A stretch of 44,100 nucleotides of DNA. Origin: Promethearchaeota archaeon (GTDB taxonomy: Archaea; Asgardarchaeota; Lokiarchaeia; Sigyniarchaeales; SOKP01). The notes beneath the pieces are model-generated. The model saw only the letters and a list, made by a program, of their open reading frames with translations, had not been told where the DNA came from and did no database searches. Shown here piece after piece: positions 2,824 to 38,589 of the stretch (position 1 is its first letter; each line of letters starts with the position of its first letter). The position numbers and the translations under genes were made by a program. Where the stretch lies: the NCBI GenBank assembly GCA_048939445.1, contig JBHLPN010000002.1, positions 1 to 44,100 of the forward strand. Reading direction: 5' to 3'.

Positions 2824-4137
2824 CTAAAAAATTGAGAAATTAGTGTATGGCTTTAACTCATCTAAAACAAAATTTGTATAAGTATCTTCTATTTCCTCTG
2901 ATATATATAGATCTCTGATAAAATTTGCATAATCTTCAATATTTCTAACTCTAACAATAGCAAATAATCCATATTGTTCGCCAATTCGAAATAAATCAGT
3001 TATATTTCTATTTTTATCCAATCTAAGGGCAAGTTCATTGTATTTTGATGGATCTTTAGGTTTAATCCGAAGGAGATATTTTCCTTTAAAACCTAATTTT
3101 TTCGGATGAAAATTTACGGTATAATTTAAAATAACCCCTTTTTGTTCGAGATTTTTTATTCTATTATGAATAGTTGACTGTGAAATTTCCAATTTAAGTT
3201 GATCTTTAAAAATTTTTCTTATTTCATATGTAGATATTGGCTTAATTCCTTGACTGTCTCTTAATATCTTTAAAATAGTATAATCAATATCATCAATTTC
3301 AAAACTCGGATCAATTTTTTTCTTATCTAATTTTATTCCAGTTTTCCTTATACTTTTAATTATGCTATCTATTAGTTCGTCTGTTTTTACTATATTCTTT
3401 AGACCAGTAACTACTATTTTACCATTAGAAAAAATTAAAACTTTTGCGTAACCATTTTCAATCTTTATGACTAACCCTGGAAATACCTTCGGATTATATT
3501 CAATATCAGCATGGTTTTTAGCAATTAGATCTAAATCAACTTTTTTAGGAATTTCTATAACAATCTTCTCACTTTCATTATCCTTTTTTTCTTTATATTT
3601 GTCAAATAATTTTTCTACAAGCTCTTCTTCAATAGACAGGTTTGCCATCCTTAGGCTAATCCCATTTGTCTTGAACACCTTTATAGTTTCAATTATTTGA
3701 TATTTTTTAAAATATGATTTTGCCATTATTTTATCAATGGTGTTTAATATCTGATAATATTCTTCAGGGGATTTAAAGATAAATAGGGCGAATAATGAAA
3801 AGTCTCCAATAATTCCATCCAACATCCTCAAATGGGGAATTTCTAATAATTTTTTGACCAGCTCAGGTTCTTTCGGGTTGGTTTTAATTTCCAGCATAAC
3901 ATATTTCAAGTTATTTGGATTAATATTTGGATTAATGTTTATAGTAAAATTAGTAATTATTTTTTGATCTCTCAAACCATCAAGTTTGTTTTGATATGTC
4001 TGTCTAGACAGCCCTATCGCGCGTGAGTTTTTTGATATAATAAATTTAGTTTTCCCACCCAAGTTTTTGACAAAATATTGGGCTTCTAATTGATATTTAT
4101 TATTACTCATTTTAATACAATTTTGCAAATTCTTCAA
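2824..4137 (-). CDS. Multidomain regulator: Lrp/AsnC (HTH+RAM) - single TBP-like repeat - Lrp/AsnC (HTH+RAM)
   Basis: The N-terminal part is AsnC-like: IISKNSRAIGLSRQTYQNKLDGLRDQKII, then YVMLEIKT..IGDFSLFALFIF. The middle part, VDLDLIAKNHADIEYNPKVFPGLVIKIENGYAKVLIFSNGKIVVTGLKN, matches one TATA-binding-protein repeat (FPGL..LIFSSGK.V.TG.K). The C-terminal part is a second AsnC-like module: DYTILKILRDSQG..STIHNRIKNLEQKGVI..GLFAIVRV. Confidence 0.7.
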   Translation of the reverse strand: MKNLQNCIKMSNNKYQLEAQYFVKNLGGKTKFIISKNSRAIGLSRQTYQNKLDGLRDQKIITNFTININPNINPNNLKYVMLEIKTNPKEPELVKKLLEIPHLRMLDGIIGDFSLFALFIFKSPEEYYQILNTIDKIMAKSYFKKYQIIETIKVFKTNGISLRMANLSIEEELVEKLFDKYKEKKDNESEKIVIEIPKKVDLDLIAKNHADIEYNPKVFPGLVIKIENGYAKVLIFSNGKIVVTGLKNIVKTDELIDSIIKSIRKTGIKLDKKKIDPSFEIDDIDYTILKILRDSQGIKPISTYEIRKIFKDQLKLEISQSTIHNRIKNLEQKGVILNYTVNFHPKKLGFKGKYLLRIKPKDPSKYNELALRLDKNRNITDLFRIGEQYGLFAIVRVRNIEDYANFIRDLYISEEIEDTYTNFVLDELKPYTNFSIF

Positions 4138-24886: not shown

Positions 24887-25267
24887 TTAAGTTCTTTTAG
24901 TTTTTAATGAGATTAAATCTGAATCTCCAAAATCAATTACACCTATAATAGAGATCATATAAGGTTTAGCACAAGCTAATCCTAAATCCCAACTTGAACC
25001 TTTGTATTTATAGATAAAGATTTTGTCTTTTAAAAGAGAATTATAATTATTTAACTGAGTTATCAATTCTCTAGGGCAATTATTGCTTACTATAAGCATT
25101 TTATAACGATTTTCTTTCTGAAGGTTTTTAATTACTTGATTTTTACCATATACAATTTTACCTGTTTTATATGCAACTTTGATATTGGTATCTACATCAA
25201 ATTCTTTAGTTTTTTTCCTACTAAGATCAACTTTATCAACGGCTGTTTTACTCTTTCTCTTTACCAT
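24887..25267 (-). CDS. rpl30e: Ribosomal protein L30e (with short Lys-rich N-terminal extension)
   Basis: 126 aa. AYKTGKIVYGKNQVIKNLQ...MLIVSNNCPRE...YKGSSWDLGLACAKPY fits eL30. Confidence 0.85.
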   Translation of the reverse strand: MVKRKSKTAVDKVDLSRKKTKEFDVDTNIKVAYKTGKIVYGKNQVIKNLQKENRYKMLIVSNNCPRELITQLNNYNSLLKDKIFIYKYKGSSWDLGLACAKPYMISIIGVIDFGDSDLISLKTKRT

Positions 25268-32575: not shown

Positions 32576-33169
32576 TTATAGTAATCGATCATAATCCAAT
32601 TTATTTTTCTCTAATATTTTAATAACAAGTTCTTTGAAAATTAAATTTATATTATAATTCTCTTTCGAAGAAGTTTTATAAAAGTCATTTTCTTCATGCC
32701 TTTCCATGAACCTTTTAATTACTAAATCGTCCACTTTAGATTTATCATTTGCAATTTTCACGAGATCGTTTTTTGCTCCAACACATATTCTCGGTGTAAA
32801 TCCATGATTATAATCAACAAGTCTTTCATACCACCAATCTAATCTTAGCAAAGTTTGAAGATCTATTAAATCAAAAACCATAAAAATTCCATTAGCTCCA
32901 TTAATATAATATGGAAATAATTTTTTGAATTGCTCGCGTCCACCAAAATCCCATATACTAATTCGAACGAATGTTTCTTCACCATTGACAATAATTGGAA
33001 GATCTTTTGTATAGAATTCAATTCCTAACGTTTCTTTTGTATTTACATCAAAAGTATTAAAACATAATCGTCTAGCAATACACGTTTTCCCTACACGTTC
33101 CTGACCCAAAATTGTAATCTTAAAAATGTAAACTGGTTTTTCTTTATCGTTCATCTCTGAAATAGGCAT
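32576..33169 (-). CDS. Ras-superfamily small GTPase (Rab/Ras-like)
   Basis: 197 aa. G1 GQERVGKT. G2 region ETLGIEF. G3 WDFGGRE. G4-like GAKNDL. G5-like TSSKEN. Confidence 0.8.
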   Translation of the reverse strand: MPISEMNDKEKPVYIFKITILGQERVGKTCIARRLCFNTFDVNTKETLGIEFYTKDLPIIVNGEETFVRISIWDFGGREQFKKLFPYYINGANGIFMVFDLIDLQTLLRLDWWYERLVDYNHGFTPRICVGAKNDLVKIANDKSKVDDLVIKRFMERHEENDFYKTSSKENYNINLIFKELVIKILEKNKLDYDRLL

Positions 33170-35369: not shown

Positions 35370-35576
35370 ATGGCCGCATTTGCTTGGAGTCCATTACGGG
35401 CTCTAATGAAGAAAGCCGGAGCAGAGATTGTAAGCCGAGCCGCAGTTGATAAATTAATGGACTATTTAGAAGAATATGCTAAAAGTTTAACTGGCTGTGC
35501 GCTTGATATTGCTAAACACTCTGGCAGAAAGAAAGTTACTGCTGCAGATATGAAAATTGCGATTGGTTTAGTATAA
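35370..35576 (+). CDS. Archaeal histone (HMf family, single histone fold)
   Basis: 68 aa. PLRALMKKAGAEIVSRAAVDKLMDYLEEYAKSLTGCALDIAKHSGRKKVTAADMKIA. GGAGG at 35356-35360, 9 nt before the ATG. Confidence 0.9.
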   Translation: MAAFAWSPLRALMKKAGAEIVSRAAVDKLMDYLEEYAKSLTGCALDIAKHSGRKKVTAADMKIAIGLV

Positions 35577-35699: not shown

Positions 35700-35882
35700 G
35701 TGTTAACAAATATAAAATGTGATAAATGTGGAGAGTTTATGACAGAAAATAGCATAAATCGGGATTATTGTTTAGAATCTACCCAACATAATTGTTCCAA
35801 ATGTGGATATTGTTATGAATCAGGATATAGATATAATACATTAACAAAACAATACATTAGATATGTGAGGTTTAATCCATAG
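35700..35882 (+). CDS. Small zinc-ribbon protein (hypothetical)
   Basis: 60 aa, GTG start, CDKCG...CSKCGYC. Its coding status is uncertain. Confidence 0.4.
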   Translation: MLTNIKCDKCGEFMTENSINRDYCLESTQHNCSKCGYCYESGYRYNTLTKQYIRYVRFNP

Positions 35883-35883
35883 C

Positions 35884-36372
35884 TTATAAAGTTCTTTGCA
35901 TCCATATGATATCAAAAAATTGATTGAATTTTTTAGCTATATTCTTAAATCTTCCACATTCAAAAAATCCATGTTTTTTATGGAAATTCAAGCTTTGTTG
36001 ATTTAAGGAAGATAAATTTACTAAAAGTATATATATTCCATGTTCTTCAGCGTCTTTAATTAATTTATTTAATAATAATGTGCCTAAACCTTTATTAGTA
36101 TATTTTTGATCAATAAAATAAGTTAACTGTCCTGTATGTTTAAAATTTTCATAAGGCAAGTAATTTTTTAAGAAGGCAAAGCCAATGACTCTTGTTCCTA
36201 ATACCAAAACGTAAAAAGAATGAGCTCTTTGTCTAATATTATTAAAAAAATTGATACTTACTTCATTTTCAGGGTAAGCAGCAAATCCATTTTTGATATA
36301 AGAGTTAAAAATCGATAAGACATTATTTAAATCAGAATCTTTAACATTTCTTATCCTAAATTCTTCTTTCAT
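35884..36372 (-). CDS. GNAT-family N-acetyltransferase
   Basis: 162 aa. Acetyl-CoA motif A region QKYTNKGLGTLLLNKLIKDAEEHG and C-terminal FHKKHGF. Confidence 0.8.
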   Translation of the reverse strand: MKEEFRIRNVKDSDLNNVLSIFNSYIKNGFAAYPENEVSINFFNNIRQRAHSFYVLVLGTRVIGFAFLKNYLPYENFKHTGQLTYFIDQKYTNKGLGTLLLNKLIKDAEEHGIYILLVNLSSLNQQSLNFHKKHGFFECGRFKNIAKKFNQFFDIIWMQRTL

Positions 36373-36440
36373 TATTATACTCCATAATTATTGGTATATC
36401 TATAAATCAAATAGAATCTTGTTTTAAAGATTTTTTTATT

Positions 36441-36510
36441 AAAAAAGAAAAAGATGATAATCCCTTAACCATTGCAGGGTTGTCATTGAATGTCTCGTTT
36501 TTTCACACTC
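36441..36510 (-). promoter_or_regulatory. Candidate SECIS-like stem-loop in the 3' UTR of the putative selenoprotein gene (weak)
   Basis: The mRNA reads GAGACAUUCA-AUGA-CAACCCUGCAAUGGUUAAGG-GA-UUAUCAUCUUUUUC. AUGA lies at 36483-36486 and GA at 36461-36462, so tandem G.A/A.G plus U.U pairs are possible. A short helix AACC/GGUU has an AA in its 7-nt loop. An alternative fold is AUGA/UCAU + CCC/GGG. A-run/U-run flanks could form a basal helix. Confidence 0.25.
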
Positions 36511-36513
36511 AAA

Positions 36514-37053
36514 TCATTCATAATTGGGATTAACAAGCTGATGATCAATTATATCCGTCATCATCTCTATTGAAGGTCTATCTGTTTTATCTTTTCCTAT
36601 ATATTTCCAAATAATCTTACCTTCTTTATTTATAAGAAATTTACTTGGTACTGCTTGTTTAATTTTGTAATTTTTTCCACCACCAGGGGCAAACCAGTAA
36701 ACATCGTATTCTTTTGCTATTTTTGCGCCTCTATCAGATACCATATCAACATTAAATTTATTTTCTTCTTTAAATTTCCTCAAAAGTCTGATGCTATCAC
36801 TAGCAATAGATATTAACTTAATCTTTCTGTTTTCAAATTCAGAGATATGTTCAGTCAACAACTTCAAGTGTTTTTTGCAATGACTTCACCAATTTCCTCG
36901 GAAAAAATCAATTAAAACTCCATCATATGTTTTGAGAAGATCTTTTAATTTTATCGGATTCTCGTAAATGTCAATTGTATCAATCATTGGTGCCATAATG
37001 TTTGTTTGTAATCCTTTAGGTCTTGGAGGTTCTTCTTCATTTGAGGTGTCCAT
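36514..37053 (-). CDS. Thioredoxin-fold AhpC/TSA-Redoxin-like protein with in-frame UGA (probable selenocysteine) at codon 56
   Basis: The frame is open from ATG 37051-37053 to TGA 36514-36516, with one internal TGA at 36886-36888. Context is VLIDFFRGNW-[TGA]-SHCKKHL...KLISIASDS...FLINKEGKIIW, so the TGA replaces the first Cys of WCxxC. The ORF track only reports the 3' part from a TTG. Confidence 0.7.
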
Positions 37054-37163
37054 ATTTATCGCTATATTTTTTTTATAATTATTTAATTAACTTAATCATA
37101 TTAAACATGTGTTTATTGTTTAATTGATGATAATTTAAATAAGTTTTAAGAAATATTATTTAT

Positions 37164-37700
37164 TTACTCGCTTGAAAACCTTTCGAATAGAATTTCTGTC
37201 ATCACTTCGAAAGTGGTTTCGACATTAGCTCCTGTTTTAGAAGATAATTCAACAAAAGACGCGAGATTGTATTTTTTTGCTGCCAGTATTCCGTCATCTC
37301 GAGGAACTACTCTAAATTCATCTAGATCTACTTTTGAGCCAATTAACATTATTGGTATATCTCCTGCATATTCTCTAATCACTTGTGTCCAATCAGGAAG
37401 GTGATCTAATGATAATTGATTCGTAATATCATATAAGAAAAAAGCTCCATTTGCACCTTTACAGTATTGGGAAAGTAAGAATCTGAATCTTTCTTCTCCT
37501 CCAAAATCCCATATCTGTAGTTTTACTTTTTTTCCTTTGAATGATGTTGTTTTTGAATAAAAATCAACGCCTATTGTTAATTTTAGATCTTCTTGAAAAT
37601 ACCCCGAAATGTATCTTATTGTAAGAGATGTTTTTCCCACTGAAGCATCTCCCAACATTAATACTTTAAATGTATAATCGTATTTTGTCACTCTAATCAA
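37164..37700 (-). CDS. Ras-superfamily small GTPase (Rab-like)
   Basis: 178 aa. G1 GDASVGKTS. G2 LTIGVDF. G3 WDFGGEERF. G4-like GSKVDL. G5 LSSKTGANV. TTG start in the track, with an alternative GTG three codons later. Confidence 0.85.
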   Translation of the reverse strand: MIRVTKYDYTFKVLMLGDASVGKTSLTIRYISGYFQEDLKLTIGVDFYSKTTSFKGKKVKLQIWDFGGEERFRFLLSQYCKGANGAFFLYDITNQLSLDHLPDWTQVIREYAGDIPIMLIGSKVDLDEFRVVPRDDGILAAKKYNLASFVELSSKTGANVETTFEVMTEILFERFSSE

Positions 37701-37853: not shown

Positions 37854-38498
37854 TCATATTACCATTAATAGTACATTAAAACAAGAATGAGCGATTGAAC
37901 AAGGAATTATTGAATAATTAAAATATACAAAAATCAGAGCTAAGAGAAGACCAAAAGTAAAATAATACCCAAAAAAAGTTATAATGGTAGATACTGGTAC
38001 TAAGAATGGAGGAACATGATAAAGTGTAAAAATGGTGGATGAAATAACAATTGAATAGAATAATTTTAATTTTATATTAAATTTTTTAATAAGAAATCCT
38101 CTGAAAAAGGCTTCCTCGCACGGTCCGACAACAATTATCTGTAAAGTTGTTAAAATGATTAATTGAATAAAAGTAGGTTGGATGGGGGCTGTGCTAATAA
38201 CTCCTTCTTGAGCCTGGTTCACAAATTCAGCACCAAATAAATTTCTAATAATGAAATCTTTAAAAAATATTATAATATAATCACTAAAGAAGAAAAACAA
38301 GATACCAAAACCTAAGCCTGAAATTACTTTAATAAGTAAGTCTTCATTTTTTTGAAATCCCATCTCTTTTAATACGTCTGTAAATGATTGATTTTTCAAT
38401 CTACTAAAGATTAAAGCAGGAAGGATGGTTAAAAGTGTCTCTAAAAGCATTAATCCAATTAAAATCCAAGAGTTTTCTCCCAACTGGACAGTCATCAT
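37854..38498 (-). CDS. CPBP-family intramembrane glutamic endopeptidase (CAAX protease-like)
   Basis: 214 aa multi-TM. Motifs CEEAFFRGF (EExxxR), FTLYH and IAHSCFN. Confidence 0.8.
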   Translation of the reverse strand: MMTVQLGENSWILIGLMLLETLLTILPALIFSRLKNQSFTDVLKEMGFQKNEDLLIKVISGLGFGILFFFFSDYIIIFFKDFIIRNLFGAEFVNQAQEGVISTAPIQPTFIQLIILTTLQIIVVGPCEEAFFRGFLIKKFNIKLKLFYSIVISSTIFTLYHVPPFLVPVSTIITFFGYYFTFGLLLALIFVYFNYSIIPCSIAHSCFNVLLMVI

Positions 38499-38589
38499 AT
38501 CTATTATTTTTATTTTGAATTATTGCTTAAAAATCAAAAAATTAAAGATCTCATTATTATTATTATTAATTCTATTATTTGTACTTTTA

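What the first reader, a model, noticed from the sequence alone, without database searches (positions are those of the whole stretch)
36514..37053. In-frame UGA at the redox-active position of a thioredoxin-fold gene: probable selenoprotein
The ORF track lists only 36514..36867, starting at a TTG. On the minus strand the same frame stays open up to an ATG at 37051-37053, interrupted by a single TGA at 36886-36888.

The conceptual product is 179 aa: MDTSNEEEPPRPKGLQTNIMAPMIDTIDIYENPIKLKDLLKTYDGVLIDFFRGNW-U-SHCKKHLKLLTEHISEFENRKIKLISIASDS...

The TGA falls exactly where AhpC/TSA, Redoxin and TlpA-like proteins carry the first Cys of WCxxC. The flanking pieces (VLIDFF strand before it, ISIASDS after it) belong to one fold, so two independent genes are unlikely. 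UxxC is the usual Sec version of this motif.

Sec decoding with eukaryote-like SECIS elements has been reported for Lokiarchaeota (Mariotti and colleagues 2016, cited from memory), which fits the other Asgard-like traits of this window.

The gene's own terminator is also TGA (36514-36516). The next in-frame stop is a TAA 24 codons later, so termination versus a second recoding event is worth checking.
Basis: partly seen in the sequence, partly recalled or inferred. Interest (0 to 1): 0.75.

Follow-up and report, generated by a model that had tools for sequence, protein, structure and literature searches.

The report
Lokiarchaeal Prx-like selenoprotein gene with SECIS
The in-frame TGA is real and almost certainly encodes selenocysteine in a peroxiredoxin-like redox protein of a Lokiarchaeial genome, but this gene family, its eukaryote-like SECIS hairpin and its stop codon inside that hairpin were all published in 2016 and 2024, so it is a well-supported ordinary case that public gene calls split in two.

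Summary
Observation confirmed. One 179-codon minus-strand ORF (37053..36514) carries a single in-frame TGA at 36888-36886. An AhpC/TSA thioredoxin-fold domain spans it.

All 81 orthologous genes in 73 Asgard (mostly Lokiarchaeial) genomes have TGA at this codon. The partner position is Cys in 60 and a second TGA in 21 (UxxC or UxxU). Both halves evolve as coding sequence in one frame. Two further assemblies contain the identical sequence across the TGA.

A lokiSECIS of the published geometry sits at the CDS end, within 36531-36459: AUGA, 9-bp stem, 11-nt A-rich loop ending in G, then GA. It has strong covariation. A model built without the window scores it 82 bits.

The terminal TGA (36516-36514) is the UGA of the SECIS core AUGA. 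Most orthologs stop two codons earlier at TAA, so it is a terminator, not a second Sec.

This is the PrxL (Prx-like thiol:disulfide oxidoreductase) selenoprotein of Mariotti et al. 2016 and Huang et al. 2024. Those papers also describe the stop codon overlapping AUGA.

The practical yield is an annotation fix. Sec machinery could not be searched for in the rest of the genome.

The parts
36514..37053 (-). Complete PrxL coding sequence: 179 codons including Sec56, plus the stop. Public gene calls split it into a 55-aa orphan ORF, with the C-terminal part either uncalled or called as a 114-aa fragment.
   Evidence: The ATG coincides with the ortholog start. Pfam AhpC-TSA covers residues 21-149.
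36886..36888 (-). In-frame UGA encoding Sec56, the first position of the UxxC redox box. It lies at the N-cap of helix alpha1 in the model.
   Evidence: TGA in 81 of 81 orthologs. It aligns with the first Cys of the ResA CxxC and with the Thr/Ser of the Prx T/SxxC motif. An AF2 model of the 86%-identical ortholog places residue 56 at the start of helix 56-68.
36877..36879 (-). Cys59 codon (TGC), the second redox-box position and the only Cys in the protein. It aligns with the peroxidatic Cys of peroxiredoxins.
   Evidence: In orthologs this codon is TGT or TGC in 60 genes and TGA in 21.
36646..36648 (-). Pro136 codon in the invariant KQAVPSKFL motif. It aligns with the Trx/ResA-type cis-Pro. 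Q133 (36655-36657) occupies the position of the catalytic Arg of peroxiredoxins.
36459..36531 (-). Whole lokiSECIS element (eukaryote-like, type I). It overlaps the last six codons (five sense codons plus the stop) of the CDS.
   Evidence: A covariance model built from 71 orthologous elements without the window scores it 82.2 bits (E about 3e-21), and it is unique in the window. Covariation is shown. It meets the published criteria.
36514..36517 (-). SECIS core AUGA. Its UGA (36516-36514) is also the gene's stop codon.
   Evidence: ATGA is present in 72 of 74 elements. The stop lies in the core in 8 of the 74 genes analysed. The overlap is published.
36485..36513 (-). Upper SECIS hairpin. The 5' arm UUUGAGUGU is 36513-36505, the 11-nt apical loop GAAAAAACGAG is 36504-36494, and the 3' arm ACAUUCAAU is 36493-36485.
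   Evidence: 8 of 9 pairs show compensatory double changes and 88.6% of cells are paired. The loop is 11 nt in 65 of 74 elements, and its last G is invariant.
36482..36484 (-). 3' half of the SECIS core (GA), followed by an invariant C.
   Evidence: GA in 73 of 74 elements. Invariant columns are listed.
36467..36481 (-). Small extra hairpin between the 3' GA and helix I (AACC/GGUU in the window). Most orthologs have a GCAA or GUGA loop.
   Evidence: 83-87% of cells paired, and 2-3 of 5 pairs have compensatory changes. It is not mentioned in the text read from the two papers.
36526..36531 (-). Helix I 5' arm AAUCCC, which is the Asn-Pro codons near the C-terminus. It pairs with GGGAUU at 36464-36459.
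   Evidence: 72-78% of cells paired, and 6 of 6 pairs have double changes. The same motif lies in the 3'UTR in orthologs that stop earlier.
36441..36452 (-). Oligo-U tract (UUUUUCUUUUUU) directly after the SECIS. It is a likely archaeal transcription terminator. This is inferred.
   Evidence: Read directly from the sequence. T-runs follow the element in almost all orthologs. Not tested experimentally.

Best explanation
This is one gene for a soluble, roughly 20-kDa Prx-like (PrxL) selenoprotein of a Lokiarchaeial (Promethearchaeota) genome.

Decoding. The UGA at codon 56 is decoded as selenocysteine by Sec-tRNA(Sec) and the archaeal/eukaryotic-type EFSec. This is directed by a eukaryote-like kink-turn SECIS (lokiSECIS) that begins within the last codons of the CDS, about 370 nt downstream of the Sec codon. 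The second UGA, at the end of the ORF, is the UGA of the SECIS core AUGA. It terminates translation, because a ribosome with that codon in its A site has already unwound the element. This matches the minimal-distance rule proposed by Mariotti et al. 2016.

Enzyme (inferred). The protein has a BCP/PrxQ-type peroxiredoxin scaffold, but its active site has been rebuilt into a thioredoxin-like redox box, U56-S-H-C59, opposite a conserved Pro136. It has lost the Pro, Thr and Arg of the peroxiredoxin catalytic site. The most likely chemistry is therefore thiol:disulfide (selenenylsulfide) exchange. Sec56 would be the attacking nucleophile, Cys59 would resolve the mixed intermediate, and a thioredoxin-type reductant would recycle the enzyme.

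Shown here: gene integrity, TGA conservation, the SECIS, the fold and the residue mapping. Inferred: Sec insertion itself, and the catalytic cycle and substrate.
For: - Gene integrity and fold: AhpC-TSA and Redoxin domains span the TGA. An AF2 model of the 86%-identical ortholog has pLDDT 90.3, with the Sec position at the N-cap of helix 56-68. The best PDB match is Bcp4 3hjp, TM-score 0.78/0.87.
- TGA conservation: 81 of 81 orthologs have TGA at this codon. The partner codon is Cys in 60 and TGA in 21.
- Coding signal: purifying selection acts in the same frame on both sides of the TGA, and the ATG start is shared with orthologs.
- Sequence reliability: the sequence across the TGA is identical in two further assemblies.
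- SECIS: AUGA, 9-bp stem, 11-nt A-rich loop ending AG, then GA, exactly as published. The covariation score is 0.432 against 0.249 for shuffles (0 of 500 reach it), and slid controls reach at most 0.153. The leave-one-out covariance model scores 82.2 bits.
- Terminal stop: orthologs end in TAA in 61 genes, TAG in 12 and TGA in 8. The window differs from the common CCC AAT TAA GAA TGA only by TAA to TAT.
- No global TGA reassignment.
- Active-site mapping: R52, U56, C59 and Q133 against the Prx residues P, T/S, Cp and R. U56, C59 and P136 against the ResA residues C, C and cis-Pro.
- Literature: PrxL with UxxC or UxxU plus a lokiSECIS in Lokiarchaeota. It occurs in 43% of Sec-using Asgard archaea, and 86% of Lokiarchaeia/Helarchaeales use Sec. 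The stop-in-AUGA overlap is described.
Against: - No direct evidence of selenium incorporation (no proteomics or 75Se labelling).
- tRNA-Sec, EFSec, PSTK, SepSecS and SelD are not in this 44-kb window. They could not be searched for in the rest of the genome.
- No lokiSECIS has been tested functionally, and its binding protein is unknown. SBP2 was not found in Loki.
- The enzymatic function of the family has never been characterised.
- Cys59 occupies the peroxidatic position of a Prx scaffold, so a peroxidase-type cycle is not excluded.
Confidence: 0.92

Rival explanations
1. The TGA is a genuine stop: a pseudogene, a sequencing error, or two separate genes (a 55-aa peptide and a 117-aa TTG-started fragment), as the public gene calls imply.
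For: Public gene calls list a 55-aa ORF and either nothing or a 114-aa fragment. MAG annotations of orthologs are C-terminal fragments of 100-119 aa.
Against: - The TGA is conserved in 81 of 81 orthologs at 41-87% identity.
- The N-terminal 55 codons are under purifying selection in the same frame, and they supply the strands (residues 45-51 and earlier) that the fold needs.
- The Pfam domain spans the TGA.
- The DNA across the TGA is identical in two further assemblies.
- A dedicated SECIS follows the gene.
Confidence: 0.01
2. The UGA is read through or reassigned to a standard amino acid (Trp, Gly or Cys) rather than Sec. This is how code-4 gene callers translate it (W).
For: Database 'full-length' homologs print W at this position. 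No Sec machinery was seen in the window.
Against: - The W comes from gene callers switching to code 4 on short contigs. It is an artefact.
- In this window Trp is TGG, including the codon immediately before the TGA. No other gene has an internal TGA, and three genes end in TGA.
- The position is the catalytic nucleophile of a redox box, where only Cys or Sec makes chemical sense.
- A conserved SECIS accompanies every ortholog.
Confidence: 0.03
3. The terminal UGA (36516-36514) is a second recoding site. Translation would then continue 24 codons to the TAA.
For: It is a UGA in a mRNA that carries a SECIS. Three code-4 database translations run through the equivalent codon.
Against: - The UGA is inside the SECIS core, which cannot stay folded while it sits in the A site.
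- 73 of 81 orthologs end in TAA or TAG, typically two or more codons upstream, so the downstream stretch is untranslated in them.
- The downstream sequence is conserved through compensatory base-pair changes, not as protein.
- Mariotti 2016 reached the same conclusion for VhuU.1 and for terminal UGAs in general.
Confidence: 0.02
4. A functional alternative that still assumes a selenoprotein: the enzyme is a true peroxidase. Cys59 (at the Cp position), or Sec56, would reduce peroxides and the partner residue would resolve the oxidised form. It would not be a general thiol:disulfide oxidoreductase.
For: The closest structures are all BCP/PrxQ/AhpE peroxiredoxins. C59 aligns with Cp. Sec is an excellent peroxide-reducing nucleophile in GPx and in TxxU Prx selenoproteins (table).
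Against: The Pro, Thr and Arg that activate Cp and bind peroxide in all peroxiredoxins are replaced by R52, U56 and Q133, which are invariant or nearly so across orthologs. The CxxC-plus-Pro arrangement is that of ResA/TlpA-type oxidoreductases. The literature calls the family a 'Prx-like thiol:disulfide oxidoreductase' lacking typical Prx features.
Confidence: 0.25

Closest known systems
PrxL / Prx-like thiol:disulfide oxidoreductase selenoprotein of Lokiarchaeota and other Asgard archaea (Mariotti et al. 2016, PMC4989117, gene PrxL.2 type; Huang et al. 2024, PMC11227280)
   Same: - AhpC/TSA-type fold lacking the typical Prx residues.
- UxxC redox box with TGA at the first position, and no Cys outside the box.
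- Type I lokiSECIS (AUGA, 9-bp stem, 11-nt A-rich loop ending in G, GA) at the CDS end.
- The UGA stop overlaps AUGA, as described for other Loki selenoprotein genes.
- Orthologs at 41-87% identity in 73 Asgard genomes.
   Different: Nothing essential. This copy comes from assembly GCA_048937805.1, whose high accession number suggests (not verified) a deposit later than those surveys. It is split or uncalled in the public gene calls. The extra small hairpin and the CDS-embedded helix I are not described in the text I could read.
BCP/PrxQ-type peroxiredoxins (e.g. S. solfataricus Bcp4 3hjp, A. pernix PrxQ 2cx3/4gqf, S. tokodaii 2ywn)
   Same: Best structural and sequence neighbours: TM-score 0.78/0.87, with profile E-values of 1e-11 to 1e-15. 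C59 aligns with the peroxidatic Cys.
   Different: The catalytic Pro, Thr/Ser and Arg are replaced by Arg52, Sec56 and Gln133. A three-residue insertion (PSK), absent from the Prx sequences, carries Pro136. The redox partner lies three residues upstream of Cp, not in the usual resolving-Cys positions.
TlpA/ResA/CcmG-type thiol-disulfide oxidoreductases
   Same: W-C-x-x-C box at the same column (here W-U-x-x-C). The LPTSFLID motif corresponds to VPSKFLIN here, including the conserved Pro. The likely chemistry is the same.
   Different: Those proteins are membrane-anchored and extracytoplasmic and use Cys. PrxL has a polar N-terminus with no hydrophobic anchor and uses Sec. Overall similarity is lower than to BCP.
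Selenoprotein L (metazoan UxxU Prx-like selenoprotein, Shchedrina et al. 2007) and NCBIfam NF040769 'SelL-related redox protein'
   Same: A Prx-like thioredoxin fold with Sec in a UxxU or UxxC box. One SECIS serves two UGAs two codons apart, as in the UxxU paralogs of PrxL.
   Different: The NCBIfam score is only 50.6 bits against a cutoff of 120, so this is not a member. The window gene has one Sec, not two.
Eukaryotic SECIS element (kink-turn AUGA...AA...GA; Rfam SECIS_1)
   Same: AUGA/GA core, unpaired A-run in the apical loop, and a 3'UTR location that acts on a distant UGA.
   Different: The upper stem is shorter (9 bp) and the loop is a fixed 11 nt. It abuts and overlaps the CDS. It got no Rfam hit even at E<=10. 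No SBP2 is known in these organisms.

Membership tests
Asgard PrxL (Prx-like) selenoprotein | AhpC/TSA-type thioredoxin-fold domain as one continuous protein | tested here: met
   Pfam PF00578 scores 76.3 bits (cutoff 26) over residues 21-149, across the TGA. The AF2 model has pLDDT 90.3 and Prx neighbours in the PDB.
Asgard PrxL (Prx-like) selenoprotein | Redox box UxxC or UxxU, with an in-frame TGA at the first position that is conserved in orthologs | tested here: met
   The window reads W-U-S-H-C. TGA is present in 81 of 81 orthologs. The second position is Cys in 60 and TGA in 21.
Asgard PrxL (Prx-like) selenoprotein | No Cys outside the redox box (Mariotti 2016) | tested here: met
   C59 is the only Cys in the 179-aa translation.
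Asgard PrxL (Prx-like) selenoprotein | Type I lokiSECIS right after the CDS: AUGA, 9-bp stem, 11-nt loop with a 5' A-run and a terminal G, then GA | tested here: met
   All features are present within 36531-36459. Covariation is shown. The leave-one-out covariance model scores 82.2 bits.
Asgard PrxL (Prx-like) selenoprotein | Host genome encodes tRNA-Sec, EFSec, PSTK, SepSecS and SelD | not testable with these tools
   None of these is in the 44-kb window. The literature reports that 85.9% of Lokiarchaeia/Helarchaeales have the Sec trait.
Asgard PrxL (Prx-like) selenoprotein | Sec actually incorporated into the protein | not testable with these tools
   This needs proteomics or 75Se labelling. 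It has not been done for any PrxL.
Peroxiredoxin (AhpC/TSA, BCP/PrxQ subfamily) | Prx fold | tested here: met
   Foldseek top hits are 3hjp, 4gqf, 4x1u and 5epf, with probability 1.00 and TM-scores up to 0.87.
Peroxiredoxin (AhpC/TSA, BCP/PrxQ subfamily) | Active-site motif PxxxT/SxxCp | tested here: not met
   FFPAAFSPVC (2cx3) aligns with FFRGNWUSHC. Pro is replaced by Arg52 and Ser/Thr by Sec56. Only Cp (C59) is kept.
Peroxiredoxin (AhpC/TSA, BCP/PrxQ subfamily) | Conserved catalytic Arg | tested here: not met
   kRAV--F of the Prx sequences aligns with kQAVPSKF. Gln133 is invariant in PrxL.
TlpA/ResA-like thiol-disulfide oxidoreductase | WCxxC box at the N-cap of helix alpha1, plus a conserved Pro loop | tested here: met
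   GTWCKPC and LPTSFLID of ResA 4nmu align with GNWUSHC and VPSKFLIN. P136 is invariant. The cis conformation of the Pro was not tested.
TlpA/ResA-like thiol-disulfide oxidoreductase | N-terminal membrane anchor or signal, with an extracytoplasmic location | tested here: not met
   The N-terminus MDTSNEEEPPRPKGLQTN is polar and acidic with no hydrophobic segment. Residues 1-5 of the model are disordered. No dedicated predictor was run.
NCBIfam NF040769 SelL-related redox protein | Score above the curated cutoff | tested here: not met
   50.6 bits against a cutoff of 120.
Eukaryotic SECIS (Rfam SECIS_1) and other Rfam SECIS families | Match to the curated covariance model | tested here: not met
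   No SECIS family hit at E<=10 over 35800-37300. The only overlapping hit is a sub-threshold C/D-box snoR21 match of 26.4 bits against a gathering score of 45. This agrees with Mariotti 2016, who found that standard SECIS tools miss the lokiSECIS.

The most novel reading that the evidence does not exclude
The PrxL SECIS may be more than the published stem-loop. It may be a family-specific three-helix element.

Its closing helix is built from the last sense codons (AAU-CCC, Asn-Pro). A small GNRA-like hairpin sits on the 3' strand. Its kink-turn core can supply the stop codon.

Across lineages the stop codon sits before helix I, between helix I and the core, or inside the core. The CDS end therefore appears to have crept into the RNA element. 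If so, the conserved C-terminal '-NPN' tail would be dictated by RNA structure, not by protein function.

If the extra hairpin and helix I are required for Sec insertion, for example as a docking site for the still-unknown lokiSECIS-binding factor, this would be a new structural determinant of the archaeal-to-eukaryotic SECIS transition.
Probability: 0.2. Interest if true: 0.4.

Novelty: already known. Interest (0 to 1): 0.2.

Why it matters
For biology it matters little beyond confirmation. PrxL selenoproteins, their eukaryote-like SECIS and the stop-in-AUGA overlap are established for Lokiarchaeia.

The practical value is in annotation. In GCA_048937805.1 the gene is split into a 55-aa orphan ORF with the C-terminal part uncalled. 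Orthologs in MAG records are truncated to 100-119 aa. Protein databases also hold versions with Trp printed at the Sec position, because gene callers switched to code 4.

The 90-sequence SECIS alignment and covariance model built here could be used to re-annotate Asgard selenoprotein genes. They also provide well-defined constructs (core, stem, extra hairpin, helix I) for the first functional test of a lokiSECIS.

Tried and rejected
- Rfam scan of 35800-37300 at E<=10. No SECIS family matched. The only overlapping hit was a sub-threshold C/D-box snoR21 match. I reject it as a real snoRNA. It reflects the kink-turn-like AUGA/GA motifs and the AAUCCC/GGGAUU closing helix, and the element is tied to 90 PrxL 3' ends.
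- Single-sequence MFE folding of the 3' region. The z-score was 0.15, so it was uninformative. AT-rich sequence folds no better than shuffles. The structure is supported only by comparative data.
- First anchoring heuristic for the SECIS. It mis-set about 15 loci. It was replaced by a search that scores stem complementarity.
- Second covariance-model hit at 38461-38541(-), 19.9 bits. It lacks AUGA and has many broken pairs. I reject it as chance.
- Global TGA reassignment. Rejected on the stop-codon and Trp-codon usage in the window.
- Structure prediction of the U-to-C edited window protein. The 86%-identical ortholog P0001 was modelled instead.
- Supplementary tables of Mariotti 2016. They are not held in the library, so I could not compare directly with their PrxL.2 sequence.
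- Sec machinery. I looked for it in the window only and found none.
Full report
**1. Observation**

On the minus strand an ATG at 37053-37051 opens a frame that runs to a TGA at 36516-36514. The frame is interrupted once, by a TGA at 36888-36886. The mechanical ORF list shows only a 55-aa piece and a 117-aa TTG-started piece. So is the statement that the next in-frame stop after the terminal TGA is a TAA 24 codons later.

**2. One gene, one fold**

With U replaced by C, the product matches Pfam AhpC-TSA (2.6e-21, 76 bits, cutoff 26) over residues 21-149, and Redoxin (3.6e-15). Both matches run straight across the TGA.

An AlphaFold2 model of the 86%-identical ortholog P0001 is confident (pLDDT 90.3, pTM 0.86). 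It places residue 56 at the N-cap of helix 56-68, directly after strand 45-51. That is the canonical redox-box position of the thioredoxin fold.

The closest solved structures are archaeal BCP/PrxQ peroxiredoxins and AhpE. The best is Bcp4 3hjp, with TM-score 0.78/0.87 and rmsd 2.0 Å.

**3. Comparative evidence for recoding**

A protein search gave two classes of homolog:
- 'Full-length' entries on short contigs.
- C-terminal fragments of 100-119 aa in Lokiarchaeota/Promethearchaeota MAG annotations.

Every full-length entry aligned (25 of them) prints W at the U column (GNWWSHC), and some print W at both redox positions. This is the signature of gene callers switching to genetic code 4.

I then fetched 78 loci from GTDB species representatives. 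Nearly all are Promethearchaeota. A few are labelled Hermod-, Hod-, Thor- or Odinarchaeota.

At the DNA level the codon is TGA in 81 of 81 PrxL genes found. The second redox position is TGT or TGC in 60 and TGA in 21 (UxxC and UxxU). Eight loci carry a tandem UxxC plus UxxU pair.

Substitutions relative to the window concentrate at third codon positions both upstream (793/589/1701 at positions 1/2/3) and downstream (942/453/2298) of the TGA. The ATG coincides with the ortholog start, M-x-x-x-N-E-E-P-P-R-P.

The window is contig JBHLMV010000002.1 of GCA_048937805.1. The 609 nt of CDS plus SECIS are identical in a second MAG. An independent Logan assembly matches without mismatch over the 490 nt it covers, including the TGA and the SECIS. 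This excludes a read or assembly error.

TGA is not globally reassigned. The other 36 Pfam-supported genes of the window have no internal TGA, and three of them end in TGA. Trp is TGG, including the codon just before the Sec codon.

**4. The SECIS**

Mariotti et al. 2016 define the lokiSECIS as follows:
- AUGA immediately before a 9-bp stem.
- An 11-nt apical loop whose first nucleotides are adenines and whose last is an ultraconserved G, usually preceded by A.
- GA after the stem.
- A location right at the CDS end.

The window reads AAUGA | UUUGAGUGU | GAAAAAACGAG | ACAUUCAAU | GA-C at 36518-36482, so it meets every criterion.

The same element follows the orthologs. ATGA is present in 72 of 74. 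The loop is 11 nt in 65 and 12 nt in 9. GA is present in 73 of 74.

On a plain MAFFT alignment of 72 elements:
- 8 of the 9 stem pairs show compensatory double changes, in 22-30 sequences for six of them.
- 88.6% of cells are paired.
- The covariation score is 0.432 against 0.249 for shuffles (0 of 500 reach it), and at most 0.153 when partners are slid.

A covariance model built without the window sequence scores the window element at 82.2 bits (E about 3e-21). It finds nothing else credible in the 44 kb.

Rfam has no matching family. The only overlapping hit is a sub-threshold C/D-box match, which reflects the kink-turn-like motifs. This agrees with the published remark that standard SECIS tools miss these elements.

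**5. The terminal TGA**

The gene's stop (36516-36514) is the UGA of the SECIS core AUGA.

Most orthologs read CCC AAT TAA GAA TGA, where the window reads CCC AAT TAT GAA TGA. The window has lost the usual TAA and runs two codons further, into the core. Among the 74 genes analysed (window included) stop inside the core. Over the 81 genes, the stops are TAA in 61, TAG in 12 and TGA in 8.

The 24 'codons' after the stop are the SECIS itself. They are conserved through base-pair covariation, not as peptide.

The terminal UGA is therefore a terminator. Both the overlap and the minimal-distance rationale are already in the literature.

**6. What the protein probably does**

Profile alignments map the Prx catalytic residues P, T/S, Cp and R onto R52, U56, C59 and Q133. 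They map the ResA residues C-x-x-C and cis-Pro onto U56, C59 and P136. R52, Q133 and P136 are invariant or nearly so.

The scaffold is therefore a BCP-type peroxiredoxin, while the active site is a thioredoxin/TlpA-type redox box with Sec as the exposed nucleophile. The N-terminus is polar, with no membrane anchor.

I infer a cytosolic thiol:disulfide (selenenylsulfide) oxidoreductase. I keep a peroxidase cycle as a minority alternative, at about 0.25.

The family has never been characterised experimentally. NCBIfam's best match, below threshold, is 'SelL-related redox protein'.

**7. Context and limits**

The window carries archaeal housekeeping genes: rpoA1/A2, NusA, L30e, S12, S7, eIF6, FtsY and prefoldin. 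It also carries two Ras-family GTPases and a histone. This content is consistent with a Lokiarchaeial origin.

It contains no Sec machinery and only a tRNA-Gly. The literature reports the Sec trait in 85.9% of Lokiarchaeia/Helarchaeales, and PrxL in 43% of Sec-using Asgard archaea.

**8. Comparison and verdict**

Every defining feature of the published PrxL selenoprotein family that could be tested is met. The defining catalytic residues of true peroxiredoxins are not.

The finding is correct but already known (Mariotti 2016; Huang 2024; the 2026 review). What remains is an annotation error in the public record, plus a small unreported-looking detail of the PrxL SECIS. That detail is a covarying extra hairpin (36481-36467) and a closing helix (36531-36526 with 36464-36459) whose 5' arm is the Asn-Pro codons of the CDS end.

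Interest is 0.2.

Noticed in passing
window 36459-36531 (-), and loci L001-L078 at the 3' ends of PrxL genes: Beyond the published 9-bp stem and 11-nt loop, the PrxL SECIS has two further parts. One is a covarying small hairpin (window 36481-36467), whose loop is mostly GCAA or GUGA in orthologs. The other is a closing helix, AAUCCC/GGGAUU. The 5' arm of that helix encodes Asn-Pro at the CDS end in most lineages, but lies in the 3'UTR where the stop comes earlier. The conserved '-NPN' tail may therefore be constrained by RNA structure.
   Followed up: partly
L004, L005, L007, L008, L011, L017, L028, L071: These loci carry tandem PrxL paralogs about 700 bp apart. In seven of the eight the UxxC gene comes first and the UxxU gene follows (L071 has the reverse order). 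Each gene has its own lokiSECIS. The window has only the UxxC gene, followed by a GNAT acetyltransferase.
   Followed up: partly
proteins P0001-P0041: Public protein collections hold 'full-length' PrxL sequences with Trp printed at the Sec position or positions. Three run through a terminal TGA into the SECIS. The cause is gene callers choosing genetic code 4 on short contigs. This artefact could mislead homology-based annotation.
   Followed up: yes
L042 (DATKTW010000172.1): An 8-kb contig binned as 'Candidatus Nanopelagicaceae bacterium' carries a Loki-type PrxL gene with TGA and a lokiSECIS. The contig is probably mis-binned archaeal DNA.
   Followed up: no
L061 and L006 SECIS cores: Two rare core variants. 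L061 has AGGA instead of AUGA. L006 has AA instead of GA after the stem. The AA variant is known for VhuU and HdrA elements but is unusual for PrxL.
   Followed up: no
window 2824-4137 (-): A 437-aa ORF combines a single TBP repeat (residues 195-265) with a C-terminal Lrp/AsnC ligand-binding domain. This is an unusual domain pairing. It might be a fusion or an over-extended ORF.
   Followed up: no
window 38461-38541 (-): A weak second hit of the SECIS covariance model (19.9 bits, E about 0.007), inside the 5' end of the Rce1-like ORF. It lacks AUGA and has many broken pairs, so I judged it chance.
   Followed up: yes
window 32576-33169 (-) and 37164-37700 (-); 35370-35576 (+): Two Ras/Roc-family small GTPases and an archaeal histone flank the PrxL gene. 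I take small GTPases to be typical Asgard gene content (from general knowledge, not tested here). The upstream GTPase ends 110 nt before the PrxL start.
   Followed up: no
window 24887-25267 (-): An L7Ae/L30e-family protein sits in the rpoA-NusA-S12-S7 cluster. It is an ordinary ribosomal gene. I note it only because kink-turn binders of this family (SBP2, L30) bind the eukaryotic SECIS, and no lokiSECIS-binding protein is known.
   Followed up: no
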